Shown: positions 18,397-59,000, counted from the stretch's first letter. The stretch is 64,000 nucleotides of DNA from Dehalococcoidia bacterium (GCA_965197795.1 OZ240228.1:813128-877127), one strand, 5' to 3'. The notes: generated by a model from the letters alone, not told the origin. A program made the numbers and translations.

Positions 18397-19395
18397 TCAA
18401 GCGTCTCGGGCAGCATCAAGGGCTTCTTGTGCATGAAGCTGATCATGCCGATGAAGCATCCGGTCAATGGATGCGGCACGGCGTCGCCCTAGTACTAGTC
18501 GGATCGAATGGTCGTCAAAGTCCATGCTTCGCAACCATGCGGCAAGCGTGGCCACTAGTTGCGGACGAGTCGCCTTCGGCCAGCCTGCAAGCACGCAACT
18601 TGCCCGGAGACTATCCCGGAAGGCTCTTTCTGAGAGTCCTGCGTCGGAAGGACGACCTCGAAGGACGAAGGCATCTCGGTCAAGCCCGGAAGCCAGTCCG
18701 TGCTTCAGCAGCGACTGCGCACCTGGTCCGACCACGAAGACAGTAACCCGATGCCCTCGCCGCATGACCTTAGCTTCCCAATACGGGGTCAGGCCGTCAT
18801 CGTGCCACGTTAGGTCTCGCCATCTGAGCTCACACATCTCCTTCACATCGATCCCGCTAAAACATGCCAACGCAGCAATTGCACCTGAGATCGGGGTCCG
18901 GGTGATCCCGGCATTCAAGATGTGCTCCAAGGCGTCGGCAGTTGGTGTTGGCCCCGGCATGCGTCGCCGACTTCTGGAGCCGGGTACGGACACGCCCGCG
19001 TCGTACCAGCCCTTGACCGCTTTCTTGGGAAGAGCAGCCTGGAACATCCGCACTCGCTGGCGCCCAAGGTAAGGCGATACACCCATCATGAGGAATCGCT
19101 GAAAGGCGCGGATGCGCGTGAGTACGGTGGCCATTCCAAGCCCCTTACTCGCCTTCTCAATTAGCATCGCGGCCGCCTCGGGATCGCCACGGAGTTCTCG
19201 AAGGCTGACGCTGGTCAATTCCTCCGACAGACGCGCAAGACTCCGAAGCTGAGAAACCTCCGAAGCTACCGTAGAGGCTGCTCCGCCCAGGTCTCTGCGC
19301 CACGTCTGGAAGACAGACAACTCTTCAAGGGATGGAACAGACAGCGGGACCGCAGGGCCAGGTTGGAAAAGTTTCCCTTGAGCATCCATGCTCAC
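18397..19395 (-). CDS. tyrosine-recombinase-like protein (no catalytic Tyr found in its C-terminal region); second gene of a tandem pair
   Basis: 332 aa. Its start overlaps the upstream recombinase stop by 4 nt. It has an integrase-like fold with R..H..R-like residues but no C-terminal Tyr. Possibly a degenerate or accessory paralog. Confidence 0.45.
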   Translation of the reverse strand: MSMDAQGKLFQPGPAVPLSVPSLEELSVFQTWRRDLGGAASTVASEVSQLRSLARLSEELTSVSLRELRGDPEAAAMLIEKASKGLGMATVLTRIRAFQRFLMMGVSPYLGRQRVRMFQAALPKKAVKGWYDAGVSVPGSRSRRRMPGPTPTADALEHILNAGITRTPISGAIAALACFSGIDVKEMCELRWRDLTWHDDGLTPYWEAKVMRRGHRVTVFVVGPGAQSLLKHGLASGLDRDAFVLRGRPSDAGLSERAFRDSLRASCVLAGWPKATRPQLVATLAAWLRSMDFDDHSIRLVLGRRRAASIDRMLHRHDQLHAQEALDAARDA

Positions 19396-20669
19396 TTCAT
19401 CTCCACCAGCACCGTGGGAAGTTGGGCTGGACCACCGTTTTCAGGGGCAGTCGAGAGAGACGACAATCGAGTCCTTAGGCGCGTCAAGGACGGCTGAACA
19501 TAGTGATCGTCCATTCGGCGCGGACTGGTCCAGTTACCAGCCAGCGAAGCGACTGAACGCGAAACGAGCGTCGTCGCGAGAGTTGCAAAAGCCCTTCTAT
19601 AGCCGTGAGCGGTGAATGCCTCAACACCAGCCTGAGAACACGCGACAGCCAAATCCCTCGACCATTGTCGGTATGTCCAGGCCCCCGCCGTTATCCGTCT
19701 CCAGAAGGGGCCAGGCACACCAAATCCGATGCGCTCCGAATGAACAAATGCCCTTGCCCACGTATTGAAGGCCACGACATAGGCCTCCAACGCATCGAGA
19801 GCGGCCTTCGGCACGGCCACCTCGAAGGGCTGGACGGAACTCTTTGCCTTGAGGATCATGCGGCCTTGACCATTAGGAAGCCTGTGCAAGTCAGCGCCGT
19901 CTAGTCGAAGGAGGGCACCTATTCGTAGACCTCGATCCGCCAGTAGGCACAGTAGCGCCTCGTTGCGGGAGCCAATCCAGCCCTCACCGCGACTCAGGAC
20001 ATGCCGAACCGCTTCGGCCTCGTCGGGCGTGGGCATTCGGCCTCCACGACCACGAGACCAGCCAACGGGCAATCGGTAGCCGGTTCCGACTAACTCGGCG
20101 ACCTGTTGGAGAGCCTGATCGACATTGCCCGCTGGTTGGGGCAAGCCGAACTGTTTGAGCTCGACCTCCATCAGGAGTGCGAATGCTCGAGCCACACTGC
20201 GTCTCTGGGAAGCGAGCCATGCTGTAATGCTCCGTCCGCCATCTGACGCCATTCCACTAGCCAAGGTCTTTCCCAGTAGATCAAGGTCCGAATAGAACCT
20301 AACCAATGAGACCGGCTCGCCCAGGAGCGTTGTCGCAAGCATCAGCGAATCACGCAGTACCCAGGAGTATTGCCGAACTGTCGCCGCTGTGAAGCGGTTG
20401 GCGACCCGCCTGCCAAACTCCGCAATGAGCGCTGCGTCGTCTGCAGGTAGGCTGGCCACCCGCCCAGTTCGTCGCTTGAGGTCCCGTGACTCAGCGCCGC
20501 AACCTGGTAGAGCCTGCTGAACGTCAGTGCCGATCTTTGCAATCTGTTCGTCTAAGTCGACTGCCGATCTTTGCTTAGTAGTTTCCGTGTCAAGCTGCGA
20601 CCAGAATGTCTCGGTGTCTTCCGCAGAACGGCAACCAAGAAGGGGTTGCGCTGAAGTCGGCGCCTTCAC
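19392..20669 (-). CDS. tyrosine recombinase/integrase (true start probably downstream of 20669)
   Basis: C-terminal catalytic motifs AHGYRRAFAT...LAGNW...DHYV (H-x-x-R ... Y). An N-terminal SAM-like core-binding region is present. Repeat unit occ1 lies within the 5' region annotated by the ORF track. Confidence 0.7.
   Translation of the reverse strand: MKAPTSAQPLLGCRSAEDTETFWSQLDTETTKQRSAVDLDEQIAKIGTDVQQALPGCGAESRDLKRRTGRVASLPADDAALIAEFGRRVANRFTAATVRQYSWVLRDSLMLATTLLGEPVSLVRFYSDLDLLGKTLASGMASDGGRSITAWLASQRRSVARAFALLMEVELKQFGLPQPAGNVDQALQQVAELVGTGYRLPVGWSRGRGGRMPTPDEAEAVRHVLSRGEGWIGSRNEALLCLLADRGLRIGALLRLDGADLHRLPNGQGRMILKAKSSVQPFEVAVPKAALDALEAYVVAFNTWARAFVHSERIGFGVPGPFWRRITAGAWTYRQWSRDLAVACSQAGVEAFTAHGYRRAFATLATTLVSRSVASLAGNWTSPRRMDDHYVQPSLTRLRTRLSSLSTAPENGGPAQLPTVLVEMK
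20525..20581 (-). repeat. bipartite repeat unit, copy 1 (reverse orientation, degenerate B half)
   Basis: cagtGCCGATCTTTGCAATC-[14]-GACTGCCGATCTTTGCTTAGTAG, compared with reverse-complement unit GACTATCGATCTTCGGAGTC-[13]-GACTGTCGATCTTTGCTTAGTAG. Confidence 0.6.
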
Positions 20670-30320: not shown

Positions 30321-30525
30321 GTCTCGCTCCTTCTGCCGACGGTAACCTACCGCCACTACAGGAAGCCAGAGCAACCTCAGTCATCCATTAACAATTGCTA
30401 ACTCTGTGTCCGGATTTCGCTGACGGGGAACAGTGCAAGCCAGCGACCAAAGTCTCCATTAGAAATCAGGCCGAAAAGTCCGGATTTCGCCGAAGACGTA
30501 CAGCAAGAGTCCTCGCTGTTCAGGA
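29940..30525 (-). mobile_element. IS3-family remnant (orfA plus left-end IR beginning TGAACAGCG...); orfB is deleted
   Basis: The minus-strand end at about 30525 begins TGAAC, and two GTCCGGATTTCGC direct repeats lie in the leader. It ends 2 bp before repeat unit copy 2. Confidence 0.5.
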
Positions 30526-30527
30526 CC

Positions 30528-30581
30528 GACTATCGATCTTCGGAGTCTGGCGATCGCCCTGACTGTCGATCTTTGCCTAGT
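30528..30581 (-). repeat. bipartite repeat unit, copy 2 (reverse orientation)
   Basis: GACTATCGATCTTCGGAGTC-tggcgatcgccct-GACTGTCGATCTTTGCCTAGT. Nearly the exact reverse complement of copy 5 (47899-47954). Confidence 0.8.
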
Positions 30582-31286
30582 CTCCTCGGTCCACTAACGT
30601 TGGTCTCGCGTGCCGCTTCGTACGAACTCCGTAAGTCGTCCAATTCAACGCATGTGATTCGGTGTGCACACGGTTCACCCGTGTAAGCGTAAGGAGGGAC
30701 ATCGCGCCCATCCGGGGCATTGTCAGTCTTATTCTGATTACACTTCTCGCACAGCAATTGCAAGTTAGTGAGTTCCGAGTGACTTCTTATCGGTATGATG
30801 TGATCCACCGTTAGCTGGTCCGTAGAGTACATGAGCTTATCGCACCTGTTGCACACCAGACCTTGCTTGTATGCAAGCAAGGTCTTCGCTTGGAATTTCT
30901 TGGGGGTGTTTATCCATCTCTGTAACTGGTGATGTGGCAGCTCATTACCGTCGACTTTGTCGTTAGATCGCTTTTTAATATCATCGATTAGGTCGTCGAT
31001 AGTGTGGTAATTGGTACCATCCAAAAGCTCACTGAACATCTCATCGAGTACTCTGGCAACCTCGCTGAACCGCTCGCCAATGCCTCGCATTGAGGCCAAA
31101 GCTTCTGTTTGAGGCAGACTGTTTGAGCTTGGACTAGAGTCCGCGTCCAGGTGAAGGATCGTGCTTTTTTCACCGCAGTCTTCGCATTGCTCAACGGTAG
31201 TAAAGCTTCCGCGGTTAGTCTCCCTCCTGTCGATTTCTTTCCATCTATGAATAACTTGGACTTCGTGCATGGAGCTTTTGTTCATT
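30530..31286 (-). CDS. HNH endonuclease (lower-GC gene); its C-terminal ~18 codons are encoded by the repeat unit
   Basis: HNH motif DHIIPIRSHSELTNLQLLCEKCNQNK. GGAGAGG RBS before the ATG at 31286. The C-terminal LGKDRQSGRSPDSEDR is the translation of repeat copy 2. Confidence 0.7.
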
Positions 31287-32082: not shown

Positions 32083-32138
32083 CTACTAAGCAAAGATCGA
32101 CAGTCCCGCAGGAACCCGGACTCCGAAGATCGATAGTC
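32083..32138 (+). repeat. bipartite repeat unit, copy 3 (forward); start of a 297-bp segment near-identical to 48721-49016
   Basis: CTACTAAGCAAAGATCGACAGTC-ccgcaggaacccg-GACTCCGAAGATCGATAGTC. Confidence 0.85.
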
Positions 32139-32337
32139 TAGCCGTACAAGGTGGTCTGCTTTGGTCTAGGCGAAGACATGGCGTTACCCATCGAAAGCCA
32201 CCGCCGTGACCAGAGCCGAGCATACCGTTCCAGTCACTCGACTGCGAGCTAGCGCGGCAAGACAACGGTCAGCTCGAAGGGATAGCCTTTACTCGCCACC
32301 GCACGAACATGGTGGAGTGTGCACCTAGTGAACAGGC

Positions 32338-47755: not shown

Positions 47756-47796
47756 CACTTGCCCTCTAGAGGGATAATTTAGCTCTAAGCGAGCCA

Positions 47797-47818
47797 CATG
47801 TCGATCTTTGCTTAGTAG
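47797..47818 (-). repeat. repeat unit half-copy (reverse A half only), copy 4
   Basis: aTGTCGATCTTTGCTTAGTAG, 78 bp upstream of forward copy 5. The two form a short inverted pair. Confidence 0.6.
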
Positions 47819-47898
47819 CGCGTCACCTTCAGAGTCAACGGGCGTGGAGATAGGCGTCGGAGCAATCTGGTCGGGGGGATTCGTATCTCGTGGAAACA

Positions 47899-47954
47899 CT
47901 ACTAAGCAAAGATCGACAGTCAGGGCGATCCCTAGACTCCGAAGATCGACAGTC
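47899..47954 (+). repeat. bipartite repeat unit, copy 5 (forward)
   Basis: CTACTAAGCAAAGATCGACAGTC-agggcgatcccta-GACTCCGAAGATCGACAGTC. Reverse complement of copy 2. Confidence 0.8.
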
Positions 47955-48387
47955 GACCCTGAACAGGGAGGCCTGCCTGGCCTCGAGAAAAACTCACCGA
48001 AAGGCAGCGCGGTTGAGTCTCCTCTGCCACGTTGTGCCGCCGACGGTCGACCTCTCTTCTGGATGCCACAGCTGCAAGCCGCTGCCACCGCAGCAACTGG
48101 CACCCAATTGCTTCAATGGCGCTGGAGGCAGGCCTATCATTGCCATCTAATCCTCCGGCAGCAGACCGGGCGAAAGTTCAGATAGCGAGGCTAACAACCG
48201 GGGGGCTGGAAACTGAGTCAGAACGATGTCGGAGTGGTGGTTATGGCACAAGTAGTGGCGGAAATCTCACGGCCCGGAGCTGCACACAACTCCAATTTGA
48301 GGCGATTGACCGGCTCCTAGTCTCGGAACCCGTAGCTGAGGACTCAGCACCATAACTGTTGGACCCAACCCTAGCGAGGCAGCCCCC

Positions 48388-48720
48388 GTGGATTACGTCG
48401 TCAAGCCCTTCTCGCCGACCGAGCTTTCGGCCAGGCTCCGAGCGGCCCTGCGAAGGCGGGCCGTGTCCGAGCCGTCCGTGCTGGGCGACCTGGTTGTCGA
48501 CTACGCCGACCGCAGGGTGACCTTTGCCGGTCGTCCAGTCGAGTCGATGGCAATCGAGTACCGGCTGCTTGTCGAGGTTTCAGCGAACGCCGTGCGGGTG
48601 TTGACCTATGACCATCTACCGCAACGGGTCTGGGACGAGAAGAGCAGCAGCGACATGCGCCCCATGCGCATCATCGTAAGCAAGCTCCGTCGCAAGCGCC
48701 GACCACGTCGACAACCCCAT
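48388..48720 (+). pseudogene. C-terminal winged-helix (OmpR-type) fragment of a response regulator, cut at both ends
   Basis: PFSPTELSARLRAALRR...LVVDYADRRVTFAGRPVESMAIEYRLLVEVS...RVWDEKSSSDMRPMRIIVSKLRRK is a trans_reg_C domain. No receiver domain is upstream. The 3' end runs into repeat copy 6. Confidence 0.55.
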
Positions 48721-48775
48721 CTACTAAGCAAAGATCGACAGTCCCGCAGGAACCAGACTCCGAAGATCGATAGTC
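48721..48775 (+). repeat. bipartite repeat unit, copy 6 (forward); tip of the left ~230-bp terminal inverted repeat
   Basis: CTACTAAGCAAAGATCGACAGTC-ccgcaggaacca-GACTCCGAAGATCGATAGTC. Homology continues inward to about 48950 and is mirrored at 58040-58238. Confidence 0.85.
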
Positions 48776-48974
48776 TAGCCGTACAAGGTGGTCTGCTTTG
48801 GTCTAGGCGAAGACATGGCGTTACCCATCGAAAGCCACCGCCGTGACCAGAGCCGAGCATACCGTTCCAGTCACTCGACTGCGAGCTAGCGCGGCAAGAC
48901 AACGGTCAGCTCGAAGGGATAGCCTTTACTCGCCACCGCACGAACATGGTGGAGTGTGCACCTAGTGAACAGGC

Positions 48975-49298
48975 CTAGCGTCTCCCGAAGCCCCCGTCGT
49001 GCAGTACCGTCTTGCGCCCGCGGCAGGACTGGCACAGCGCCTGAAGGTTGGCCCAGGCATCGGACCCGCTCCGAGATTTGGGGCGGACGTGGTCAACGAC
49101 CGTAGCCCTGGCACCACAAGCTACGCAGCGCGGCTGGCTCGCCAGGACCCGGCGACGGAGGCGTTGCCAAGCACCACCGTAGCCACGACTAGCAGTAGTA
49201 GGGCGCTGCACTTGGTGTCTGAGGCACCGCGCCGACCGTGTGAGGACGGTGCAGTCCGGCTCAGAGCAGGGAGCGGGCAACCGGCGGCGCATGGCCAC
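48975..49298 (-). CDS. phage-type HNH endonuclease (copy 2)
   Basis: 107 aa, about 85% identical to 32338..32655. Located just upstream of terS/terL, as in HK97-like packaging modules. Confidence 0.7.
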   Translation of the reverse strand: MAMRRRLPAPCSEPDCTVLTRSARCLRHQVQRPTTASRGYGGAWQRLRRRVLASQPRCVACGARATVVDHVRPKSRSGSDAWANLQALCQSCRGRKTVLHDGGFGRR

Positions 49299-49510
49299 AG
49301 GATAACCGAGTCGCCTCGCGAAAAAGTTAATCTAGGCAACCCCCCAGACCGCGCAAAACCCGTCTTCCATTTTTTCCGAAAAAACAGGGGTTGGTTTGGC
49401 ACCCCTCCGGACGGCGTTTCGAGTCTGGCTCCGGGCGGCCCAGATTCAAACCGCCCCGGTCCATTTCGGCTCAAAAGAGGCCGAAAAGTGCTCACCCAGA
49501 CGGCTATCCC

Positions 49511-49939
49511 ATGACTAGCGGGCGGGTGCCGAAGCAGAATGCAGACCGTCTGACCACGCATTCCTCGGAGGTCAACAAGGAGCTGCGGCTCCCCGGCAAG
49601 GTGCACCCACCGAAGGCCCCGGTGCAGTGGCCTGAGAACGTCAAGAAGTGGTACGGCCTGCTGCGGCGATCCGGGCAAGCCGAGCTGTTCGACTACAGCG
49701 ACTGGGCGCTGGCCCTCCAGGCTGGAGACTGCCTGACCTACGCCCGGGCGTCAATCGTGAAGAGTCCATGGGCGGCCGTGCAGTGGATGCGCACGTTCGA
49801 CGCCATGTACGCCCGCCTCGGCGCTACGTTCATCGACCGGCGGCGCGAGCGGCTGGAGCTGCACAGGGGCGACGTCATCGAGGAGGAGAGTGAGGCACCG
49901 GACACCATCATGGCGTATCGGGAGCGTTTCGGCGAATGA
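49511..49939 (+). CDS. phage terminase small subunit
   Basis: MTSGRVPKQNADRLTTHSSEVNKELRLPGKVHPPKAPVQWPENVKKWYGLLRRSGQAELFDYSDWALAL, directly preceding the terminase large-subunit gene. Confidence 0.6.
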   Translation: MTSGRVPKQNADRLTTHSSEVNKELRLPGKVHPPKAPVQWPENVKKWYGLLRRSGQAELFDYSDWALALQAGDCLTYARASIVKSPWAAVQWMRTFDAMYARLGATFIDRRRERLELHRGDVIEEESEAPDTIMAYRERFGE

Positions 49940-50979
49940 AGGCGCTGCGGACGCTCCCCGAGGGCTTGCCCGGGCCGGCCCAGAGCATCGGCTGGTGGGT
50001 GGCCGACTGGTGTGAGCGCAACCTCGAGGTCCCAGACGGCCCGGAGGCCGGTAAGTCATGGCGCTTCACAAGGAGCAAGGGAGGTTCCTGCTGTGGTGGT
50101 ACGCCATCGATGAGAAGGGCCTGTTTCGCTACCGCTACGGCGTCCTACAGCGGGCGAAGGGTTGGGGCAAGGACCCGCTGGCGGGCGCGATCGCGCTATG
50201 TGAGCTGATGGGGGCCGTGCCGTTTTGACCGGATCGAGGGCGGCGTCGCCTACGCAAAGCCGGAGGCTTCACCGTGGATTGCCATCGCGGCGGTAGCGGA
50301 GGAGCAGACGCGCAACACGACCAACCTCTTCGACGGGTTCCTTCCTCCCCGGACGCGGAGACGGTACAAGATGCAGGTCGGCAAGAAGATCTGGCGCGCA
50401 ACGGTCGGCGGCCGGACGGGGGAGATTCCGCCTCGCGCCACGTCTTACCGCACGGCCGAGGGCGCTCGGCCGACGGCCTACATCCTCGGCGAGACGCAGC
50501 ACTGGCGCGCGGAGAACCACGGCCACGACATGTACGCGGCGATCCAGCGCAACCTGGGCAAATCGCGCGAGGGCGCGGCCCGTGCGCTGGCGACCACCAA
50601 CGCCTTCCGCCCAGGTGAGGACAGCATCGCCGAGCGTGACTACGACGCCTGGTTGGAGCAGTCGCGCGGCGGCCGGGTCGACATCCTTTATGATTCAGTG
50701 GAGCCTGTACTGGCGGATGACTTCGATGAGGACGACGACGAGGTGATGATGGAGGGCATCGCGGTAGCTTACGGCGACTCGCTCCCGTTCATATCGCCGT
50801 CCCGGATCATGGCGGAGGTCAGGTCGCCGACGGTTACCACGGCCGACGCGAAGCGCTTCTACCTCAACCTCCGTGTAGCCGGTGCCGGTGCCTGGATGAA
50901 CCCTTCGGCCTGGGACGCGAGCTACCGATCGCGCCTCGCGTTCCCTCTCTCCCGAACGAAAATCTGCTCAGGGACCTAG
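49936..50979 (+). pseudogene. phage terminase large subunit, N-terminal two-thirds, with two frameshifts (about 50065 and 50225), truncated
   Basis: Three frames join to give ...SWRFT|EQGRFLLWWYAIDEKGLFRYRYGVLQRAKGWGKDPLAGAIALCELMG|DRIEGGVAYAKPEASPWIAIAAVAEEQTRNTTNLFDGFLPPRTRRRYKMQVGKKIW... This is the terminase_1-type ATPase domain. The ORF ends at about 350 aa. Confidence 0.6.
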
Positions 50980-51969
50980 ACTCTGACCACTTCAAGACCT
51001 CCAAGGCTAAGCTAGATGAAGCGGCTGGTATTGCAGAGTCCGCGCTCCGAGAGTCGGACGAGGACCGTTCAATTGGACTATGGCAGCGGTTGTTCAGGAC
51101 AAGATTCCCGCAGCGAGTCGATTGAGGTCTGCGTTAGCTCCAGATGTCGTCGAAGCAGACCAGGTGCAGGTCTTCGCGAGAGAGCGGCGGTTGAGCGTCT
51201 AAGGTAGCCGGGCCAGCCTCCGGCCCAACGGCGTCCATTGAACGGACCTGGCTAATCACAGGCTCAATGTTCTGGTCTCGCTGGAACTGTTCGTAGACCC
51301 GCCGCAGGTCTCGGATGGCGGTATGGGTCATCGGGGACCGTAGGCGCTCACCGCCTCTCTGACCTCGGCCCGCTTGACGGATGGGCTGTTCAGGTACCCT
51401 CGCAGCAGCGTTATGATCGTCTGTTGCAACGGGTCCAGGATTCTGGGGGGGGGGGCGGCGGCTTCCACCGCCTGCTGTTCGCGCACGGAGCCGAGGATGT
51501 CGTTGATTACCCTGTCCTGGATGGCGAAGACATCGGGCCGCAACCGTGGAGTATTAGCGCAACTGGCGGCGGTCCCAATCCGGCCGCCGTGAACAGCGCA
51601 AGCCCCGCTACGAACCGGCAGGAGGCCAACTCGGACGGCTGCCTGGCCGGGATGGCGGCCACTGCCCCGACGTGCGTAGCAGCCAGACCCGCACCAAAGT
51701 GGGGCGGGTGAAAAGTCTAGAGCTCACTCGCCTGTAGAGCGTGGTTGGCCATCGTTTATACAGTCGCGAAATAAGCTTTTGGGATCAGGTTGAATCTGAG
51801 CGGCGCGATTTTGAATCTGCGGGCGCGTGCAAAAACACGTCAAAACAGGCCTAAAACATGCAAAAACAGGCCAAAAGGGCGATATGTGTTGGTTGATCAA
51901 TGCGTGTGCGATGAGGCTTCGATGAACAGCGGTGAGTGGTACGCTTGAGTGAGATAGCCCAGGAGGCAG

Positions 51970-52371
51970 ATGATGGCCAAAAGTAGCGGCGGCGGCGGCG
52001 GGCGTAAGCCTCAGCCGACGGCGCTCAAGGTACTGAAAGGCAACCCGGGCAGGCGCCCACTCAACGAGGCTGAGCCCAAGCCCGAGGTGCTCTTACCGAG
52101 CCCGCCGGCACACCTGCCGCCCGCGGCCCGCCGGGAGTGGCGCCGCTCCGGCGCGTTCCTGGTGGAGATGGGGCTGATGACTGACCTGGATGTGGCGGCG
52201 CGGGCCGCGTACTGCGTGGCGTATAGCCACTGGGTAGACGCCGAGCATCAGATGCGCAAGCACGGCATACTCATGAAGTCGACTCGAGGGGAGCCGACAC
52301 GGAGTCCGTACTGGTTCATTTCAACGAAATCGATGGACTTGATGCGGTCGTTCCTGCTCGAGGCTGACTGA
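51970..52371 (+). CDS. phage terminase small subunit, P27 family
   Basis: GRKPQPTALKVLKGNPGRRPLNEAEP...LPPAARREWRR...GLMTDLDVAARAAYCVAYSHWVDAE matches the P27 TerS consensus. Confidence 0.65.
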   Translation: MMAKSSGGGGGRKPQPTALKVLKGNPGRRPLNEAEPKPEVLLPSPPAHLPPAARREWRRSGAFLVEMGLMTDLDVAARAAYCVAYSHWVDAEHQMRKHGILMKSTRGEPTRSPYWFISTKSMDLMRSFLLEAD

Positions 52372-52905
52372 CTTCGAGAAGCTTTACCCGTCCTTGCTAT
52401 AAGTAAGCGGCCTGCGTGGACGTCGTCGAGGTCCCGATCGGTGATCTCCGTCCGGATTCCGCCAACCCGCGCCGCATCTCTACTGAGCCGGCCGAGGCCA
52501 TGAGGCACTTGACCGTAGGCCATGCCACGCCCTGAGGAGAATGGCTCATTCGACGTCTCAGAACCTGAACGGCCGGCTTCGACCTAAGCCGTCCAGGCGA
52601 GGCGAGGGATTGCGCACGGGCGTCTAGAGTGCCGAGGTGGATATCGTCACCGCGGATTGCAACGTGTCTTCTCCTGCTCAACTTCGACACGCGCGGCGCG
52701 CGCCGCGGGGGCGATCGCACGGCCTCTCTCACGAGTGCAAGCGCTCTATGCGCAGCGTAACCCACCAAGCTATCGGATTAGCGTCGGTAGCGTCGGCCGT
52801 TCCGTCTCTTGATAGCTCCACTCGCGGAAGCCACCTCAGCGACGAGCTTGGCGTGCGCAAGTGCCGGCGTCGGATTTCGCCCTTGGCCTTTTGCCTTCGG
52901 CATAA

Positions 52906-53247
52906 CTGCCTCCAAGCGCTGCATCCAATTACGGAGACTGGCCTGACTCTCGAGCGGAAGAGAAGGGAATTGATGTCGCTCTTGCGATCGATTTCGTCAC
53001 GGGGGCTGTGGACCGCACCTACGATGTGGGGGTCATTCTATCGACCGACACCGCCTTGAGGCCTGCCCTCGAATGGGTGATGGCTCGTTACACGGAGTAT
53101 CCGCGAGCTGAAGCTGCGGCCTGGCGCGGTCAGCTCGCCCGTAAACGCCTACAGGTTAGGGTCAATGGGCGTCAATCATGGTGCCACTTGCTGGATCGCG
53201 AGGTCTACGATGCAGTGGCTGATGAGACGGATTACAACGTTGCATGA
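52906..53247 (+). pseudogene. NYN/LabA-like (PIN-fold) domain remnant lacking the N-terminal part
   Basis: Hand translation gives ...RAEEKGIDVALAIDFVTGAVDRTYDVGVILSTDTALRPALEWVMAR..., resembling the NYN core (DValA.D....YD..vLvSgD.DF.P). The frame opens after a TAA at 52903 with no start codon. Confidence 0.35.
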
Positions 53248-53400
53248 GTCTTGCCCTTCCCATCCCAGGACTCTCTTGGCGATCTCGCGGCCCACTTTTG
53301 CCCTCAGGAAAATTTGAACCAACTGCCTTCTGAAGATACCGCGCGTGGCAAGGCAAGTCGTGTACGTACGGAGCATCCACCTCCGGTGGCTCCTGAGGAC

Positions 53401-53453
53401 AGGTGAGCATACCCTTATAGAGGAACGCTCTTAAGGGTATGCTCACCTGTCCT
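53401..53453. other. perfect 20-bp inverted repeat hairpin (GACAGGTGAGCATACCCTTA-13 nt loop-TAAGGGTATGCTCACCTGTC) overlapping the helicase gene stop
   Basis: Seen directly in sequence. Candidate terminator or protein-binding site. Confidence 0.5.
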
Positions 53454-55277
53454 TAGATAACCGGCGACTGTCCTGCGACTTGCACCGGCCAGCTGTGCCA
53501 CGCCGCTGGTTGTAATTGGCGCGCACCTCTTCTGCAGTTGTAACACAGCACTGCGGATCCGTCTCTCCGCATCCTCGCGGCGCCGGTCGTTAAGCTGCGA
53601 CGACTCACTGTTGGTTATTAGCTCGTCAACATGGAGCCCTGGTACTGGGTGGCTCGTATGCAGAACAACCCGAAGCTGCTGCCGTGTTGAACCAATGCAC
53701 TTCGAGAGGAGAGCAGGTTGCTCAAGCGTGAAAATACGGGCTCGCTGGATAGATTGTTCCATCTCGTCTTCACGTGCTGCTCGCAGAAGTTCAGCAACGC
53801 GAGGATCAATGCAGTCCACTACGTCGACCTCGTATCCTTGTCCGCCGAAGACTCGAGGTGATAGCACCATCCGGCCACTCACCGGTGGCTCGTTCGTATG
53901 CAATACCTGCGCCAGGAAGAATAGATCCTGCAGAGACGGCATCGGCCGTCCCACGAGGTGCAGCCTCTCCACGTCTGCGAGCGCGTTGGTGCCGCGAACG
54001 CTGCCAAACGTCACTACCTGCTCCTCGGCAAAGCCATCGGAGACGAGGCCTGCTCGCATCCCGCGAAAACAGATGACACCTTCTTTTTCGGGAGGTAGTG
54101 GGAGCGATAGCCGTTCAGAGTTGATCTCGGCCCGGACTTGGAGGGCTTTGTTCGCGTTACTTAGCACTGTGTGGCCGTTCGTGGTGGCTGCATACTGGAC
54201 CACCTTGACGTTTTGTGGCTTGCGGATAGCCACATCGATATCTGGCAGCCTCTCGTGATCGCGGGTTAGATGATGAACTAGGGTGGTCACCGGAGTGGCG
54301 TCAAGGAGCAGTAAGTCCAGCTGCGATAAGAGCGCCTCTCCTATCCTGCTCCTGACATGGTGCTTGAGGTTCCAGACCTCGATGCCGTCTAGGCTGAGAC
54401 GTAGCCGGCTGTTGAAGTCATCCCCAGCTTTGAATGAGCCGAGCTCATCTTGCAGAGTAGCGAAGAGGGTGTCGAGAGTCGCGGGTGGGGCTCTCTCCAC
54501 GGATTCACGGCTGACTAGACCTTGCTCATCTGCCGTAGGCTTCGGAAGCCTGGTCTGTTTGGGCAGCGCCTCAATCAAAGTCACGATGTCGAATCCGTAG
54601 CGGCGGGCGGTTCTCGCAAGCTGATCCCACGCATGGCCCCCTATCAGCCTCACGGGGCCACCGTCTTCGCGACATGGGACTTCCAGGGCTGCGTGGCTGA
54701 GGATTGCCAGTAGCCTGCGTAACCCGGTTCGGCGTTTGCCTCGCAGGAGCTTATAAGCGCGTACTAAGTCTTCTCTACTAATGTAAATGCGCTCTACTAG
54801 GGCTCGCATGAGGTCGGCATCGTCCACTACCAGGAGCCTGCCGCCGGCCAGGAAGTTGCGGTTAAAGAGCTGCTCGGCAGCGGCGACTCGTGGTCCAGCC
54901 TGTTCAAACTGACGCCAGTAGGCGCAATCGTTGCGTATTGGGCAGCGTGGCTTGTCGCTCCGGCCGCAGGCCAAGTCTTCCACGCTATGTCCGGATTGTG
55001 CCAAGGCCTCTACGACATCGTGACGATGACAGTTGCCGGGATGCCGGCCCTCAACTAAGACGTAGCCGTGCTCGGCTGCCAACTCGCGCGCGAGGCGAAG
55101 TGAACCCGTGACAATGCGCGTATTCACGCCTCGCCTGTGCACAGCTTCGGCAACTGCTGTGGTCTTGCCGACACCAGGTGAGCTTTTAATCAGTTGCGCC
55201 TTCACTCCCGATGTCCCGCCTTCGATGAACTGGCGGATGGCTTCTGTTGTGTCACGACGCGCCGTAGCCAATGGCAC
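53415..55277 (-). CDS. P-loop ATPase, putative replicative helicase of the element (primase-associated)
   Basis: Walker A SSPGVGKTTAV and Walker B LLVVDDADL. 620 aa. Located directly downstream of a Zn-finger/Toprim primase gene. Confidence 0.4.
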   Translation of the reverse strand: MPLATARRDTTEAIRQFIEGGTSGVKAQLIKSSPGVGKTTAVAEAVHRRGVNTRIVTGSLRLARELAAEHGYVLVEGRHPGNCHRHDVVEALAQSGHSVEDLACGRSDKPRCPIRNDCAYWRQFEQAGPRVAAAEQLFNRNFLAGGRLLVVDDADLMRALVERIYISREDLVRAYKLLRGKRRTGLRRLLAILSHAALEVPCREDGGPVRLIGGHAWDQLARTARRYGFDIVTLIEALPKQTRLPKPTADEQGLVSRESVERAPPATLDTLFATLQDELGSFKAGDDFNSRLRLSLDGIEVWNLKHHVRSRIGEALLSQLDLLLLDATPVTTLVHHLTRDHERLPDIDVAIRKPQNVKVVQYAATTNGHTVLSNANKALQVRAEINSERLSLPLPPEKEGVICFRGMRAGLVSDGFAEEQVVTFGSVRGTNALADVERLHLVGRPMPSLQDLFFLAQVLHTNEPPVSGRMVLSPRVFGGQGYEVDVVDCIDPRVAELLRAAREDEMEQSIQRARIFTLEQPALLSKCIGSTRQQLRVVLHTSHPVPGLHVDELITNSESSQLNDRRREDAERRIRSAVLQLQKRCAPITTSGVAQLAGASRRTVAGYLRTGEHTLKSVPL

Positions 55278-55293
55278 GCCCGTGACGACAGCG

Positions 55294-56457
55294 CTACTGA
55301 TTGCCGAAGGCCTTACTGGCCGCCGTTCGCCGATGCCGGGAGGAGCGAAGCACCTCGACCGAATGCGCGCCGTCCCCCAGCGAGAAGCAAGTCGTCAAGA
55401 CCCTTCGGCCCGCCCACCTCGTCACCCTCCCACACAGCCCGGAAGACCGGCAGGCCCGCATCAAACAGCTCCCGCAGCCACCGTTCTCTTGCGCGCGTGG
55501 TGTTTGGATTGTCCTCTTCGTCGAGTGCAACGATGACTCGGCCCGGGTGAAGGTCGCAATCACGCCAACGTGGTGAGCGCTAAGCGATTGGCCGGCCAGG
55601 CCCATGACCGTCACTTCACCCAGCCGATGCGCCACGTGGGCTTTGATGCCGCCCTCGGTCAGGTATAGATCACCGCCCGGTTCGGGAATTCCTGCTATGT
55701 GGTAAAGCCCGGCCGTGCGTGTGCCCCGTGCTGTTTCGTACTTGCCGCCGACGAACTTGAACTGAAGCCCAGTGATCAGACTCGTCTCATCTCGATAAGG
55801 CACGGCGTAGGCCTCTTGACTTCCAGAGGTGCGAAAGCTCGTGCGCCCGTTCTTATCGACGAAGCCGGGCCATCGCCTGAGGTATCGCTCCCCGAAGCGG
55901 TTCACTAGGTTAAGGAGAAAGCGCTGGACACTGCTGCCCCTGCGTGGTAGAGAACAATAGCCGACCTCCCGGACGTCATCGTCCGTTAGTCCGCGCCGTC
56001 TGAGGTCGGCCCGCGCCTCCGGTCGAAGGTCTAGGAGACTCAGTGCCGCGGTATAAATGGCGTCGACCTCATCTCGGCTTAGGTCTGGAGCCTTACTGGA
56101 AGCCCTAATGCGGGGCTGGGGGCGTTCAACAGAGGGCGGGAAGTCATGCTCAAGCCCGCATGGACATCGCCCGGAGAGCAGATGTTTGTACGCAGGCGGG
56201 TGGGTCTCTATGTCGAGCTGTGCCCTGCCGGCATGCTCGTGACGCGTGCAATATGTTGTTATGCGGAGCGAAAAACCGGCACACCGGACTCCACGCTCTC
56301 GCGGCAGGCCGGAATGACCGCCGCAAACTGGGCACGGGAACAACCGGCTATGGCGCTGGAGATTAGCCTTCCCAATCTGCACCTCTCGCACGACCTGATC
56401 GTTCATGGCAGACGCACTCGACATCTCGCGGTGATCGGCGGCCAGGTCCTGGTTCAT
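55294..56457 (-). CDS. zinc-finger + Toprim DNA primase, apparently frameshifted near 55565
   Basis: CPVCGG...C...C zinc finger. Toprim E (YLTEGGIKA) in the main frame. DxD (RVIVALDEEDNP...) continues in the +2 frame after cacccgggccgag. Confidence 0.45.
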   Translation of the reverse strand: MNQDLAADHREMSSASAMNDQVVREVQIGKANLQRHSRLFPCPVCGGHSGLPRERGVRCAGFSLRITTYCTRHEHAGRAQLDIETHPPAYKHLLSGRCPCGLEHDFPPSVERPQPRIRASSKAPDLSRDEVDAIYTAALSLLDLRPEARADLRRRGLTDDDVREVGYCSLPRRGSSVQRFLLNLVNRFGERYLRRWPGFVDKNGRTSFRTSGSQEAYAVPYRDETSLITGLQFKFVGGKYETARGTRTAGLYHIAGIPEPGGDLYLTEGGIKAHVAHRLGEVTVMGLAGQSLSAHHVGVIATFTRAESSLHSTKRTIQTPRAQENGGCGSCLMRACRSSGLCGRVTRWAGRRVLTTCFSLGDGAHSVEVLRSSRHRRTAASKAFGNQ

Positions 56458-56828
56458 GCAGCACCGCCCGTTGTGCCGGACTGCCGCTCACCGTTATCGC
56501 CGGACGCGGCGGGGTCCTCAACAGGCGCGAAGTCGTCGGCTATAGACTTGAGAATCTCCCGCCACAGCGCATCCCAAGCCGGTGCGCGTGGCCCCGCCGT
56601 CCAGGCCGCCGCAAATCGCGGAGATCGATACCTCGCCGCGGGTTTGCCTCCGGCCTCCTGAACCTCGGTGCTGAGGAGGCCGTCAACGTGCTGCCGGTCG
56701 ACCATGCGCTTGCCGGAGGGGAGTTGAAGAAAGGGCAGCCAGCCCCGGTCAAGCCACCGACGTACCGTGCGAGGATGCACGTCGCACTGCGCCGCGACTT
56801 CCGAGACCGAGAGATATTTGTCCGCCAT
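56454..56828 (-). CDS. excisionase/MerR-type HTH DNA-binding protein
   Basis: LSVSEVAAQCDVHPRTVRRWLDRGWLPFLQLPSGKRMV is an Xis/HTH_17 motif. 4-nt overlap with the primase start. Confidence 0.5.
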   Translation of the reverse strand: MADKYLSVSEVAAQCDVHPRTVRRWLDRGWLPFLQLPSGKRMVDRQHVDGLLSTEVQEAGGKPAARYRSPRFAAAWTAGPRAPAWDALWREILKSIADDFAPVEDPAASGDNGERQSGTTGGAA

Positions 56829-56891
56829 TCGCGCAGAATGCCGCGCAGTGACACGGTCGATGCGGACACGCCAATGCCCGCAAAAGGGTAA

Positions 56892-57758
56892 TTATTGCAA
56901 TGTAAGGCCCGAGGCTTTGGCGAACCGACTGACAGCCTTGCGAATGGCGTCTGAAGAAACGTCGTGCCCATCCAGTTGCAACTCCCGAGCCCGCTTCTCG
57001 TAGCTCAATTTGGGGTCGAGTAGATGGGAAGCCGTCCACCGAGCGTGCAGCTTGAGTTTGGCGGCCTTCGGGACCTGCCATTCGCCGGTGCCGAGGGCCA
57101 GGCCGCGCAGACGGAGCCGAACGGGATCTATCTGTCTATGAACCGAACGCCTCTCCCGCTTCCACAGCGGTCGCTTGAGATGAATTTCGATCTCTAACGT
57201 GTCCACGTCGGCAAGACGTGGCTCATGTGCGGAAACAGACAGGTCCCCGATGACCGTCTCGGCGCCGTCATTGAGAGTGACCGGGGCTGAGGTTTCCAGG
57301 ACCCAGCCAACTGCCCCGACGAGACCGATAAACCCATCTAAGCCGGACTTCACGCGCCTGAGGTGAGAAGCAACCACGAAGGGCTCGGCCCACCGATTGT
57401 GCAGCCGCCAGTCCATGCACAAGCGGCCTACATCACCCTGGTACGCTTTGACATGGTGGCGCTGCGAGCTTCGGAGACGAATCCCGTCGTCGCGGCCGTA
57501 TTGCCGCTGTAAGGGAGTAGACACTTCTTGCTTGAGCCAGGTCGACAACCGCGCCGGCGACCGTGGAAGCCTGTTTGGTCTGTGATGGGCAAGCCGCGTG
57601 ATGATTCGGCGGTTTTGTTCGTAGATGGCCTCGAGGCCTGAGTGAAACTTTTCGCCCTGGGCGCTCTTGTCCTGGTACATGGCTTGAAGTAGTAAGCCGG
57701 TCAGGCGGACCTGGCTATCAGTGAGCGTTAGCCCTCTATGATCGCCGCCTCGTGGCAT
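56892..57758 (-). CDS. hypothetical protein (288 aa)
   Basis: Clean ORF in the replication/regulation module. No motif recognised. Confidence 0.35.
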   Translation of the reverse strand: MPRGGDHRGLTLTDSQVRLTGLLLQAMYQDKSAQGEKFHSGLEAIYEQNRRIITRLAHHRPNRLPRSPARLSTWLKQEVSTPLQRQYGRDDGIRLRSSQRHHVKAYQGDVGRLCMDWRLHNRWAEPFVVASHLRRVKSGLDGFIGLVGAVGWVLETSAPVTLNDGAETVIGDLSVSAHEPRLADVDTLEIEIHLKRPLWKRERRSVHRQIDPVRLRLRGLALGTGEWQVPKAAKLKLHARWTASHLLDPKLSYEKRARELQLDGHDVSSDAIRKAVSRFAKASGLTLQ

Positions 57759-58182
57759 CCGACTACACCATTACCGGAGAGACTCTCAAAAGGTTGCTCA
57801 GACCGGATGATGCGCTGGCGGCGAAACCGTTCGTTAGACGGAACGCGACCCCTGGCGAGCGTCCACAGACTGGCATATCGACCGTCCCCGCGGTTCCCTT
57901 CGCTACCCGCGTCCGACCACTGGTCTCCTAGTATAGGGAAGCGCGAAGGTCACGCGGAACGGAAGGCCTACCGCCGAGGCGCTGTTTATCAACGATGAAC
58001 AGTCATCCCGATGTTCGTCCAGTGGTGAGTAAAGGCTATCCCTTTAGGCTGACCGTTGCTTTGCCGCGCTAGCTCGCGGTCGAGTGACTGGAACAGAATG
58101 GTCTGCTCTGGTCACCGCGGTGGCTTTCGATGGCTAACGCCATATCTTCGCCTAGACCAAAGCAGGCCACGTTCTACGGGCT

Positions 58183-58238
58183 GACTGTCGATCTTCTGAA
58201 TCTGACTTCCTGTGAGACCGTCGATCTTTGCTTAGTAG
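58183..58238 (-). repeat. bipartite repeat unit, copy 7 (reverse); tip of the right terminal inverted repeat
   Basis: GACTGTCGATCTTCTGAATC-tgacttcctgtga-GACCGTCGATCTTTGCTTAGTAG. Confidence 0.8.
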
Positions 58239-58607
58239 TTGTCGCCGCCGTTGAAGTCTGCTCGCTGAGCTGCGAGTGGGAAGCAACCAGGCTCGGTGCC
58301 GGATCATCGGTGGAGGAGACAGCGCTGGGAGCGGCATCAATCCGGCCACCGTTCAGCCCGTTGTGCTCAAACTCCAGACACAACTGCAGAGCGCTCATCG
58401 CCCTGGGCCGTACGCGTCGGGGAGCCTGAGCCGGCATCTCCCGCTGCGATGTCTCGAAAGATGCGCTGCCAGAGCTCTGTCCAAGCAGCGTTCCGGGTTC
58501 CGGCCACCCAGGTTGCCTCGATGGCAACTTGTTCTGCCGCTGAACTCTGCTTCACGCGACTGGGGTTCGCTGGACCTGATACTCGACGTTTGCGCGGCTT
58601 GGCCAAA

Positions 58608-58757
58608 GGTAGCCTCCGAGAGGCCCGGCCTGCCAGCTGGCGCTACCCTGGGGCTTGGTTACCGCCTTCAGCGGTTGCCCACGGATTATTGGTCGGCAGG
58701 TCGAACCTCGTTGGTTCTTACCTGCAAAGGCGTGACGACGAGCGTCACATCGTGACG
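58608..58757. repeat. second copy of the conserved ~150-bp palindrome-rich 3'-flank segment (see 20848-20997)
   Basis: About 85% identical to 20848-20997, including CGTGACGacgagCGTCACatCGTGACGG. Confidence 0.6.
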
Positions 58758-58764
58758 GCCGCCG

Positions 58765-59000
58765 TCACACCGAGGGGGCGATTCGCCAATGCACCGGCTC
58801 GTCGGGTGCGTAGACAAACACGGCCCCGCGCCGAATGCATCGCTGGAGGTGTATAGCGAGTGAGGGCATCACTTCTGCAAGGCTTGATTCAACGCGACCG
58901 ATGGCCTTGGAGATGTTTGTGCGGGCTCTTTCCTGGGGCCCTGCCACCCTGCGAGCCTTCCCGCCCAGTCCAATCACACGCGACGGGCACCGGAGCTGAT
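58765..59000 (-). pseudogene. C-terminal fragment (~80 aa) paralogous to the 391-aa protein at 21010..22185
   Basis: VIGLGGKARRVAGPQERARTNISKAIGRVESSLAEVMPSLAIHLQRCIRRGAVFVYAPDEPVHWRI aligns with VIGLGSRPRRVQGPAEKARTSISHALDRVEDQLADILPALASHLKHSVKRGASFSYEPEEAIEWKI. Confidence 0.45.

What the first reader, a model, noticed from the sequence alone, without database searches (positions are those of the whole stretch)
48721..58238. Phage-satellite-like 9.5-kb element bounded by ~230-bp terminal inverted repeats
Long TIRs are unusual for integrase-mobilised satellites or PICIs and are more typical of transposons or protein-primed linear replicons. This element nonetheless carries a packaging module (HNH, TerS, TerL pseudogene, P27 TerS) and a P4-like replication module (Zn-finger/Toprim primase, P-loop helicase, Xis). 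It carries no integrase of its own. It is inserted into a response-regulator gene (fragment at 48388-48720). Several of its genes are frameshifted, so it is probably decaying.
Basis: partly seen in the sequence, partly recalled or inferred. Interest (0 to 1): 0.7.

Follow-up and report, generated by a model that had tools for sequence, protein, structure and literature searches.

The report
Recombination-site copies, not transposon ends
The two 230-base inverted repeats are real. They are gene-less copies of a recombination module that normally sits beside the dnaN gene in these Dehalococcoidia, so the 9.5 kb between them is a patchwork of decayed phage DNA in a recombination hotspot, not one self-contained mobile element.

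Summary
The inverted repeat is confirmed: 48721-48949 against 58002-58238, 200 of 229 aligned positions identical. It is not a unique pair, because the window holds seven copies of its outer tip in both orientations.

Each 230-bp unit has four parts:
- an outer one-armed site, CTAC|TAAGCAAAGATCGAC;
- a second box 33-34 nt further in;
- about 125 nt of spacer;
- a copy of the last 20-31 nt of dnaN.

In a related genome the same unit is simply the sequence downstream of dnaN. In this window and at least seven other genomes or contigs, a module of a large serine recombinase, a degenerate tyrosine-recombinase-like protein and a tyrosine recombinase fills that position. The dnaN 3' end lies inside the serine recombinase's 3' end, as ssrA does in the Dehalococcoides ssrA islands.

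Breakpoints between genomes fall exactly at the tip. There are no target duplications.

The interior is a mosaic:
- the left block, unit-HNH-TerS, is duplicated at 32 kb;
- the right block, unit-p288, recurs elsewhere attached to unrelated genes;
- the primase-helicase (DnaG-like plus XPD/DinG-like, not the P4 type) has two frameshifts;
- its relatives in other genomes lack these repeats.

The parts
48721..48949 (+). Left 230-bp unit (site S6). Tip and box 1 at 48721-48743, box 2 at 48763-48775, about 125 nt of spacer, and an antisense copy of the dnaN 3' end at 48930-48949 (TCGCCACCGCACGAACATGG).
58002..58238 (-). Right 230-bp unit (site S7). Tip and box 1 at 58216-58238, box 2 at 58183-58195, and a sense copy of the dnaN 3' end at 58002-58028 (GTCATCCCGATGTTCGTCCAGTGGTGA). 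This copy is a direct repeat of the true dnaN end at 16524-16553.
48388..48720 (+). Response-regulator fragment, truncated at both ends and frameshifted. It is joined to the left tip at its own codons ...GAC AAC CCC ATC TAC.
48975..49298 (-). HNH endonuclease gene. It belongs to the block unit-HNH-TerS, which is duplicated at 32083-33230.
49391..49939 (+). Terminase small subunit, Pfam Terminase_7.
49936..50979 (+). Terminase large subunit remnant. Only the N-terminal part is present, read in different frames and truncated at 50979.
51970..52371 (+). Second, orphan terminase small subunit (P27 family, Terminase_4). An 86-nt upstream repeat at 51777-51862 also occurs at 63787-63872.
53346..56385 (-). 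Primase-helicase pseudogene. It combines a Zn-ribbon, a DnaG-type Toprim primase and an XPD/DinG-like Fe-S SF2 helicase. It is read in three frames: 56385-55408, 55552-55370 and 55376-53346.
56454..56828 (-). HTH_17 (excisionase/MerR-like) DNA-binding protein.
56892..57758 (-). p288, function unknown. It is linked to the right unit and is C-terminally truncated relative to its only relative (351 aa, L021). Homology to L021 ends at 56976.
58239..58998 (.). Native-type flank of a tip, 97% identical to the flank in L017, including a 3' fragment of a p391-like gene (58780-58998, minus strand).
16500..20581 (-). Resident recombinase module. It holds a large serine recombinase (16500-18086, whose last 54 nt overlap dnaN's 3' end), a degenerate tyrosine-recombinase-like protein p332 (18397-19395), the tyrosine recombinase YR425 (19392 to about 20560), and the native tip S1 (20559-20581).
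32083..32312 (+). Third full-length unit (S3), 99% identical to the left unit. Its tip is joined to a 74-nt TerL fragment (32006-32079).
47796..47975 (.). Two facing tips: S4 (47796-47818, minus strand, only 20 nt of arm) and S5 (47899 to about 47975, plus strand, diverged unit type), separated by an 80-nt spacer that is conserved in L003.
30508..30583 (-). Tip S2, of the same diverged unit type as S5. It faces S3 across 1.5 kb.

Best explanation
The two 'terminal inverted repeats' are two oppositely oriented, gene-less copies of a recombination module that in this Dehalococcoidia lineage is anchored to the 3' end of dnaN.

The full module reads dnaN, then converging on it a large serine recombinase (LSR), a degenerate tyrosine-recombinase-like protein (YR'), a tyrosine recombinase (YR), two 13-nt boxes and the tip.

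The module has two recombinogenic borders.
1. The dnaN 3'-end sequence is embedded in the LSR's 3' end. This is the same arrangement as dsiB and ssrA in the Dehalococcoides ssrA islands. I infer that it is the LSR's attachment site.
2. A one-armed site overlaps the 5' end of the YR gene. It reads (C)AACTAC|TAAGCAAAGATCGAC, with a second box 33-34 nt further in. I infer that it is the YR's site. It exchanges DNA with other tips and with CTAC-bearing pseudo-sites, which produces insertions, deletions and inversions.

The 230-bp unit keeps both borders and loses the genes.

The 9.5-kb segment is what lies between two such units placed tail to tail. The same architecture is seen with complete modules in L015 and L019.

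The contents come from at least three sources:
- unit-HNH-TerS-TerL remnant;
- an orphan P27 TerS;
- an HTH plus frameshifted primase-helicase, joined to a separate unit-p288 block.

The structure, the copy census, the breakpoints and the mosaic content are shown by the data. Which enzyme acts at which border is inferred, as is the order of events (tandem accretion followed by inversions).
For: 1. The unit contains a dnaN 3' end. The inner 20-31 nt of every full unit align to dnaN's last codons and stop. In L003 the unit is continuous with the intact dnaN gene.

2. The three-recombinase module next to dnaN is conserved. It occurs with the same synteny in the window, L002, L004, L014, L017, L018 and L020, and as a deleted form in L009. 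The LSR and dnaN overlap by 54 nt. YR425 has the R..HxxR..W..Y residues. p332 has Asp in place of the first Arg, and its relatives score as Phage_integrase.

3. The tip is a crossover point.
- Thirty sites show -1 C in 29 of 31 cases, -2 A in 30 of 31, CTAC in 19, otherwise unrelated outer flanks, and a box spacing of 33-34 nt in 27 of 29 (the 31 rows include one probable chance match at window 1252).
- L014 is collinear with the window (87%) up to the S1 tip exactly, then jumps 733 bp to a CTAC inside p391.
- At S7, identity to L017 is 97% outside the tip and 78% just inside it.
- The L005 (empty) and L007 junction falls at GTCAAC|TAAGC.
- L003 has CTACAACTAT where the window has the S4 arm.
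- The response-regulator and TerL junctions both fall at TAC.

4. The two boxes share a DNA motif that is read in different frames. The conservation is therefore at the DNA level.

5. Tail-to-tail pairs of complete modules occur in L015/L016 and L019, meeting at a single dnaN-like repeat.

6. The interior is a mosaic.

7. There is a precedent: the ssrA islands have the repeat embedded in the dsiB 3' end and form tandem islands (PMC3146451).
Against: - No enzyme activity was tested, and no excised circle or alternative orientation was observed.
- The roughly 125 nt between box 2 and the dnaN repeat has no clear homology to the full module. 'Deletion derivative' is therefore only one possible origin for the short form; it could instead be the ancestral empty state.
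- LSR integration alone would not multiply the unit. Explaining three full copies needs incoming DNA that carried its own unit, or some other form of duplication.
- The inner borders differ (20, 26 and 31 nt of dnaN), so they are not one fixed crossover.
- Inverted tips would be expected to give inversion, yet no orientation polymorphism is documented.
Confidence: 0.72

Rival explanations
1. The segment 48721-58238 is one non-autonomous phage satellite whose 230-bp TIRs are its termini. It is mobilised as a unit in trans, for example by the resident tyrosine recombinase acting on both tips, and it inserted into a response-regulator gene.
For: - The arms point inward, as transposon ends do.
- A candidate trans-acting recombinase exists 28 kb away.
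- Other 'arms-inward' pairs exist: 32083...47818 in the window, and L015 and L019.
- The gene content resembles a satellite: two TerS genes, HNH and a primase-helicase.
Against: - No second copy of the segment was found in any collection searched.
- There is no target duplication, and the other half of the response regulator is absent beyond 58238.
- Each unit is linked to a different block that is found on its own elsewhere.
- There is an internal breakpoint at about 56976, and the P27 TerS gene is oriented opposite to its order in L012.
- The flank outside the right tip is the native-type flank of such tips, 97% identical to L017.
- The units contain a dnaN fragment, which is not expected of transposon ends.
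Confidence: 0.08
2. Each 230-bp unit is itself a miniature non-autonomous mobile element, MITE-like, that inserted independently next to HNH (twice) and next to p288. The inverted pair would then be coincidental.
For: - The units have two discrete borders.
- They sit in at least five different contexts: L003, L007, L021, and window S3/S6 and S7.
- S3 and S6 are 99% identical, while the adjacent genes are only 77-92% identical.
Against: - Unit-plus-p288 and unit-plus-HNH-TerS move as larger blocks with identical inner junctions.
- The inner border varies between 20 and 31 nt of dnaN.
- No target duplications are seen.
- In L003 the unit is simply the native sequence downstream of dnaN.
Confidence: 0.12
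3. The repeats are an assembly artefact or a recent inverted segmental duplication with no site-specific basis.
For: - Long inverted repeats can arise from fold-back chimeras in long-read assemblies.
- L019 carries 3.1-kb arms at 98% identity.
Against: - The two arms differ at 13% of positions.
- Each arm is closer to copies in other genomes than to its partner: the right arm is 92% identical to L003 and L007.
- The same sites recur in independent assemblies and samples.
Confidence: 0.02

Closest known systems
Dehalococcoides ssrA-specific genomic islands (DsiB/CcrB-type large serine recombinase; McMurdie et al. 2011, PMC3146451)
   Same: - The LSR gene lies against a single-copy essential gene, and the target's 3'-end repeat is embedded in the LSR's own 3' end.
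- Repeats of the target's 3' end mark the island borders.
- Strain-specific cargo accumulates downstream.
- The hosts belong to the same bacterial class.
- The window also carries ssrA-type repeats at 59898-59946 and 62145-62193, beside an LSR fragment.
   Different: - The target is dnaN, not ssrA.
- The module holds a YR/YR' pair instead of DsiA, RecF, ParB and Mom.
- There is a second, one-armed recombination site at the cargo side.
- Copies occur in both orientations, and as tail-to-tail pairs, not only as direct tandem arrays.
[quoted passage not shown]
   Same: - Paired or multiple tyrosine-recombinase genes sit at one end of an island with variable cargo.
- The recombination site lies right at the 5' end of the first recombinase gene.
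- There is no target duplication.
   Different: - In the window, one of the two YR-like proteins lacks the first catalytic Arg.
- A large serine recombinase is part of the module.
- Those elements have short termini, 13-34 bp imperfect repeats. Here a two-box arm is conserved on one side only.
- RIT elements have three YRs and 34-bp TIRs, which is not the case here.
Shufflon (Rci/sfx) and integron (IntI/attI) logic
   Same: - The resident tyrosine recombinase lies next to its primary site.
- Many copies of a site exist in which only one arm and the crossover region are conserved, as for sfx. This comparison rests on my own knowledge.
- Variable DNA accumulates and is rearranged at the site.
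   Different: - The segments are 1-17 kb and carry whole genes, phage remnants and defence systems, not C-terminal gene segments or single-gene cassettes.
- There are no attC-like hairpins.
- No orientation variants have been observed.
P4-like satellites and PICIs
   Same: - The region is small and holds TerS genes, HNH, an excisionase-like HTH protein and a primase-helicase.
- It has no structural genes.
   Different: - No integrase was detected and there are no direct att repeats.
- The helicase is XPD/DinG-like, not the D5/SF3 type of P4 alpha.
- The genes are broken.
- The segment is not a recurrent unit.

Membership tests
TIR-bounded DNA transposons (DDE type, Tn7/Mu-like, casposons) or protein-primed linear replicons | Terminal inverted repeats at the two ends of one element | tested here: met
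   200 of 229 positions are identical. However, the same end occurs 7 times in the window.
TIR-bounded DNA transposons (DDE type, Tn7/Mu-like, casposons) or protein-primed linear replicons | Target-site duplication flanking the ends | tested here: not met
   No duplication is seen for the pairs S6/S7, S5/S7 or S3/S4.
TIR-bounded DNA transposons (DDE type, Tn7/Mu-like, casposons) or protein-primed linear replicons | A transposase, Cas1 or PolB with terminal protein in the element, or in relatives that carry the same ends | tested here: not met
   Pfam and PHROGs found none in the ten larger ORFs of 48721-58238 that were scanned. The loci with tips carry YR and LSR genes or ordinary genes.
TIR-bounded DNA transposons (DDE type, Tn7/Mu-like, casposons) or protein-primed linear replicons | The same element present at several unrelated loci | tested here: not met
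   Scans of genome, metagenome and viral collections, and the contexts of protein relatives, found no second copy.
Phage satellites (P4-like, PICI) | Own integrase with direct att repeats at the borders | tested here: not met
   No integrase was detected inside, and the border repeats are inverted.
Phage satellites (P4-like, PICI) | P4 alpha-type primase with a D5/SF3 helicase, or a PICI Rep/Pri | tested here: not met
   The fold is a DnaG-type primase core plus an XPD/DinG SF2 helicase. The gene carries two frameshifts.
Phage satellites (P4-like, PICI) | Packaging-redirection genes (TerS, HNH, cos) | tested here: met
   Terminase_7 TerS, P27 TerS and HNH are present. TerL is only a remnant.
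LSR-driven genomic islands at an essential single-copy gene (ssrA-island or SCC type) | LSR gene abutting the target gene, with the target's 3' end embedded in the LSR's 3' end | tested here: met
   The LSR (16500-18086) and dnaN (15420-16553) overlap by 54 nt. The same arrangement is seen in L014, L017, L018 and L020.
LSR-driven genomic islands at an essential single-copy gene (ssrA-island or SCC type) | Repeats of the target's 3' end at island borders | tested here: met
   There is a direct repeat at 58002-58028. Inverted, more diverged copies lie at 48930-48949 and about 32292-32312. Further copies occur in L007, L008, L015, L019 and L021.
LSR-driven genomic islands at an essential single-copy gene (ssrA-island or SCC type) | Strain-specific cargo downstream of the module | tested here: met
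   L014 (module 87% identical at the nucleotide level) and L017 carry different genes beyond the tip.
LSR-driven genomic islands at an essential single-copy gene (ssrA-island or SCC type) | Demonstrated excision or integration (circular form, empty attB) | not testable with these tools
   This needs read-level data or experiments.
Tyrosine-recombinase inversion or capture systems (shufflon-like, integron-like) | Recombinase gene adjacent to a primary site, with multiple secondary copies in which one arm is conserved | tested here: met
   The tip overlaps the 5' end of the YR gene in 10 or more loci. Thirty sites have the arm conserved on one side only.
Tyrosine-recombinase inversion or capture systems (shufflon-like, integron-like) | Alternative orientations or occupancies of the same segment among close relatives | tested here: inconclusive
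   Deletion and replacement at the tip are seen (L014, L005/L007, L003). No inverted isoform of the same segment was found.
Recombinase-in-trio (RIT) elements | Three tandem tyrosine recombinases flanked by short TIRs | tested here: not met
   The module has one YR, one degenerate YR-like protein and one serine recombinase. A single module has only one tip.

The most novel reading that the evidence does not exclude
Dehalococcoidia may carry a previously undescribed island-building platform anchored on dnaN.

- A resident large serine recombinase would use the dnaN 3' end as its landing site.
- A tyrosine-recombinase pair, one member of which is catalytically degenerate, would use a one-armed two-box site as an attI-like capture and shuffling point for phage and defence DNA.
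- Gene-less 230-bp derivatives that keep both sites would spread through the region. Alone or as tail-to-tail pairs, they would seed new exchange points that mimic TIR-bounded elements.
Probability: 0.3. Interest if true: 0.72.

Novelty: new variant of a known kind. Interest (0 to 1): 0.5.

Why it matters
**For annotation.** Long inverted repeats around phage-like genes can be copies of attachment-site modules rather than element termini. Calling them a new TIR-bounded satellite class would be an error.

**For biology.** dnaN appears to be a second essential-gene anchor for genomic islands in Dehalococcoidia, alongside ssrA. Here the anchor comes with an unusual combination of one serine and two tyrosine-type recombinases, and with a site that is conserved on one side only.

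If the inferred activities are real, the module would explain how defence systems and phage remnants are collected and reshuffled next to dnaN in these poorly cultured bacteria. It could also provide new site-specific recombinases with defined sites: a roughly 60-nt two-box arm, and a 24-31-nt dnaN repeat.

Tried and rejected
- **The unit as an RNA gene.** Rfam at gathering threshold found nothing, ARAGORN found nothing, and the fold z-scores were -1.6 and -0.3. Rejected.
- **Target-site duplications.** None were seen at any tip pair.
- **DDE, Tn7 or Mu-type ends.** No transposase was found, and the tip does not start with TG. Rejected.
- **The element in viral collections.** No tip pattern and no relatives of the 620-aa helicase-half ORF p620 (53415-55277), YR425, TerS or p288 were found in IMG/VR.
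- **Sequence search against PDB.** Nothing useful was found for YR425, p332, p387 (the 387-aa primase-half ORF, 55294-56457) or p620.
- **An origin-of-replication hotspot, with dnaA next to dnaN.** The upstream gene is an aminotransferase. Rejected.
- **The flank outside S7 as a dnaN fragment.** It reads GGCGGCGACAACTAC, against dnaN's GGAGACGACAACTAC. tblastn gave no support, so this remains an unexplained resemblance.
- **The short unit as a proven deletion derivative of the full module.** Only the tip-proximal 77 nt or so and the dnaN repeat are homologous. The middle 125 nt is not. Left open.
- **Full reconstruction of the order of inversions and integrations.** This was not possible. The reciprocal joints, such as the rest of the interrupted TerL and the response regulator, are not in the window.

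Full report
**Observation**

The repeat finder gives arms 48754-48947/58011-58204 (194 nt, 87%) and 48718-48752/58207-58241. A global alignment gives 200 identical positions of 229, 87.3%. The outer 23 nt, CTACTAAGCAAAGATCGACAGTC, occur seven times in the window at 3 or fewer mismatches, against none in 100 shuffles.

The sites are S1 20581(-), S2 30583(-), S3 32083(+), S4 47818(-), S5 47899(+), S6 48721(+) and S7 58238(-). A third full-length copy, S3 at 32083-32310, is 99.1% identical to S6. Each end carries two direct copies of AAGATCGAYAGTC. Across 29 sites in all loci the spacing is 33-34 nt in 27 cases.

**Gene content**

Pfam and PHROGs confirm these calls:
- HNH, 48975-49298;
- Terminase_7 small subunit, 49391-49939;
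- a large-terminase fragment, 50371-50979;
- a P27 small subunit, 51970-52371;
- an HTH_17 protein, 56454-56828.

The 387-aa and 620-aa ORFs have no family hit, but they belong to a small family of 36 proteins. Members of about 1,000 aa fuse the two ORFs. A fused relative, P0010, maps onto the window in three frames: 56385-55408, 55552-55370 and 55376-53346. The window gene is therefore a pseudogene with two frameshifts.

An AlphaFold model of P0010 has pLDDT 75. Its N-terminal half matches DnaG-type primase cores, and its C-terminal half matches XPD/DinG-type SF2 helicases. Four nearly invariant cysteines fit an Fe-S domain; that last point is my inference. 'Primase plus helicase' is therefore right, but 'P4-like' is not.

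The response-regulator fragment is confirmed as Trans_reg_C positions 2-58 of 77.

**What the 230-bp unit is**

The inner 20-31 nt of each full unit are a copy of the last codons and stop of dnaN. In L003, a Dehalococcoidia MAG, the unit (92% identical to S7) is simply the sequence that follows the intact dnaN gene, with the tip pointing away from it.

In the window the true dnaN (15420-16553) is followed by three genes and then the native tip S1:
- a large serine recombinase (16500-18086, minus strand), whose last 54 nt overlap dnaN;
- a 332-aa protein;
- a tyrosine recombinase.

YR425 has the canonical R..HxxR..W..Y residues. p332 looks like a tyrosine recombinase with Asp in place of the first Arg, and its relatives score as Phage_integrase.

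This module, with the tip at the 5' end of the YR gene, is conserved beside dnaN in L002, L004, L014, L017, L018 and L020, and as a deleted form in L009. L010 shows the tip next to the YR 5' end, but the contig ends before dnaN could be seen.

The box motif is read in different frames at the two boxes, so the conservation is at the DNA level.

The 230-bp unit therefore keeps both borders of the module, the dnaN repeat and the two-box tip, without the genes.

**The tip is a crossover point**

Several independent comparisons place breakpoints at the tip:
- Across 30 sites the outside reads (A)C.ACTAC. Position -1 is C in 29 of 31, -2 is A in 30 of 31, and CTAC occurs 19 times. Beyond that the flanks are unrelated (one of the 31 rows, window 1252, is probably a chance match).
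- L014, whose module is 87% identical to the window's, is collinear up to the S1 tip exactly. It then continues at an internal CTAC of the p391 gene, 733 bp further on.
- At S7 the outside flank is 97.0% identical to the native flank in L017 over 743 nt. Identity falls to 78% in the 77 nt inside the tip, while the unit is 92% identical to L003 and L007.
- L005 has an intact PIN-like ORF where L007 has a unit joined at GTCAAC|TAAGC. The PIN-like reading is mine, from the sequence.
- L003 has CTACAACTAT where the window has the 20-nt S4 arm.
- The response regulator is joined at its own ...ATC TAC codons.
- The TerL fragment at S3 is joined at the TAC that an intact copy has at 50364.
- No pair of tips shows a target duplication.

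**The inner border**

The dnaN repeat is joined to different partners:
- dnaN itself;
- a second type of serine recombinase that reads into the repeat (L007, L015, L019);
- HNH (S3, S6);
- p288 (S7, L021).

The described Dehalococcoides ssrA islands have the same geometry. The LSR gene dsiB lies against ssrA with the ssrA repeat embedded in its 3' end, and the islands are tandem and bounded by the repeat (PMC3146451). I therefore infer that the dnaN repeat is the serine recombinase's attachment site.

The window also holds ssrA-type repeats at 59898-59946 and 62145-62193, beside a serine-recombinase fragment at 59059-59913. A partial tmRNA hit has E = 0.003.

**Tail-to-tail architecture**

L015/L016 and L019 carry two complete modules facing each other: tip-YR-YR'-LSR meeting LSR-YR'-YR-tip at a single dnaN-like repeat. 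S6...S7 is the same arrangement built from two gene-less units, with 9 kb between their dnaN repeats.

**The interior is a mosaic**

- The block unit-HNH-TerS occurs twice, at 32116-33230 and 48753-49713.
- The block tip-unit-dnaN repeat-p288 occurs in L021 with the same inner junction (88-91% identity). There it lies next to a NUDIX gene and is followed by SbcCD-like and UvrD-like genes. Homology stops at window 56976.
- The primase-helicase relatives in L011, L012 and L013 have no tips or inverted repeats. In L012 the order is primase-helicase, HNH, P27 TerS, TerL on one strand, unlike the convergent order in the window.

**Conclusion**

The reading as one TIR-bounded satellite does not.

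The best model is a dnaN-anchored recombination hotspot. Island and phage DNA accumulated there and was rearranged at two kinds of site. The 'TIRs' are two inverted gene-less copies of the module.

Which enzyme acts at which site, and the order of events, are inferences. The main gaps are:
- there is no activity or isoform data;
- the origin of the middle 125 nt of the unit is unknown;
- it is unclear how the full units were multiplied.

Noticed in passing
window 16500-20581, with L014, L017, L018 and L020: A conserved three-recombinase module (LSR, degenerate YR-like protein, YR) converges on dnaN with a 54-nt gene overlap. Between the window and L017 the LSR is 94% identical, but the YR pair is only about 49% identical. 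This suggests that the YR-tip part is exchanged independently of the LSR.
   Followed up: partly
L015 10102-18236, L016, and L019 9906-18279: Two complete recombinase modules lie tail to tail. In L019 the arms are 98.4% identical over 3.1 kb and include 260 nt outside the tips. One LSR type ends with DnaN's own C-terminal residues, MPMFVQW, because it reads into the dnaN-like repeat.
   Followed up: partly
window 59059-59946 and 62145-62193: A C-terminal fragment of a large serine recombinase ends in a tmRNA (ssrA) 3'-end repeat, and a second copy of the repeat lies 2.2 kb away. These look like remnants of ssrA-type islands. L012 has the identical 31-mer next to its primase-helicase element.
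   Followed up: partly
window 35238-47749: A defence-gene cluster lies between tips S3 and S4. It holds a PD-(D/E)XK nuclease, a 1793-aa DEAD/Helicase_C/MrfA-Zn protein, a 1025-aa protein of unknown function, an HhH-GPD glycosylase, an EcoO109I-like restriction enzyme and a C5 cytosine methylase.
   Followed up: partly
window 26047-31974: Between tip S1 and tip S3 lie an AbiEii-like AAA_21 ATPase (26047-27750), an RNase H-like plus AAA_11 helicase protein (28464-29936), a second HNH protein (30530-31315, overlapping tip S2) and a DUF6088 protein (31450-31974).
   Followed up: no
window 53346-56385, and proteins P0001-P0036: This is a small, unannotated protein family that fuses a DnaG-type primase to an XPD/DinG-like helicase with four conserved cysteines. 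It appears restricted to Dehalococcoidia-like phage or island regions.
   Followed up: partly
window 51777-51873 and 63787-63872: An 86-nt repeat (78% identity) lies upstream of the P27 TerS gene and again near the window's end. It contains tandem AAAACAYG.AAAACAGGCC motifs and could be a packaging or regulatory site.
   Followed up: no
window 53393-53456: A 25-nt near-perfect palindrome (96%) lies just downstream of the helicase stop codon. It is probably a terminator.
   Followed up: no
window 32083-32310 against 48721-48947: These two units are 99% identical, while the adjacent HNH and TerS genes are only 77-92% identical. This suggests recent exchange or gene conversion confined to the unit.
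   Followed up: no
window 58239-58262, L017 10120-10164, and L019: The conserved flank outside several tips, ...CTTCAACGGCGGCGACAACTAC, resembles the dnaN sequence 36 nt before its stop, ...GGAGACGACAACTAC. It is not clear whether this is a relic of dnaN or a preferred target.
   Followed up: partly
window 21010-24453: Three genes without family assignment (391, 401 and 279 aa) follow the native tip. The first two are conserved in the same position in L017, and a fragment of the first recurs at 58780-58998.
   Followed up: partly
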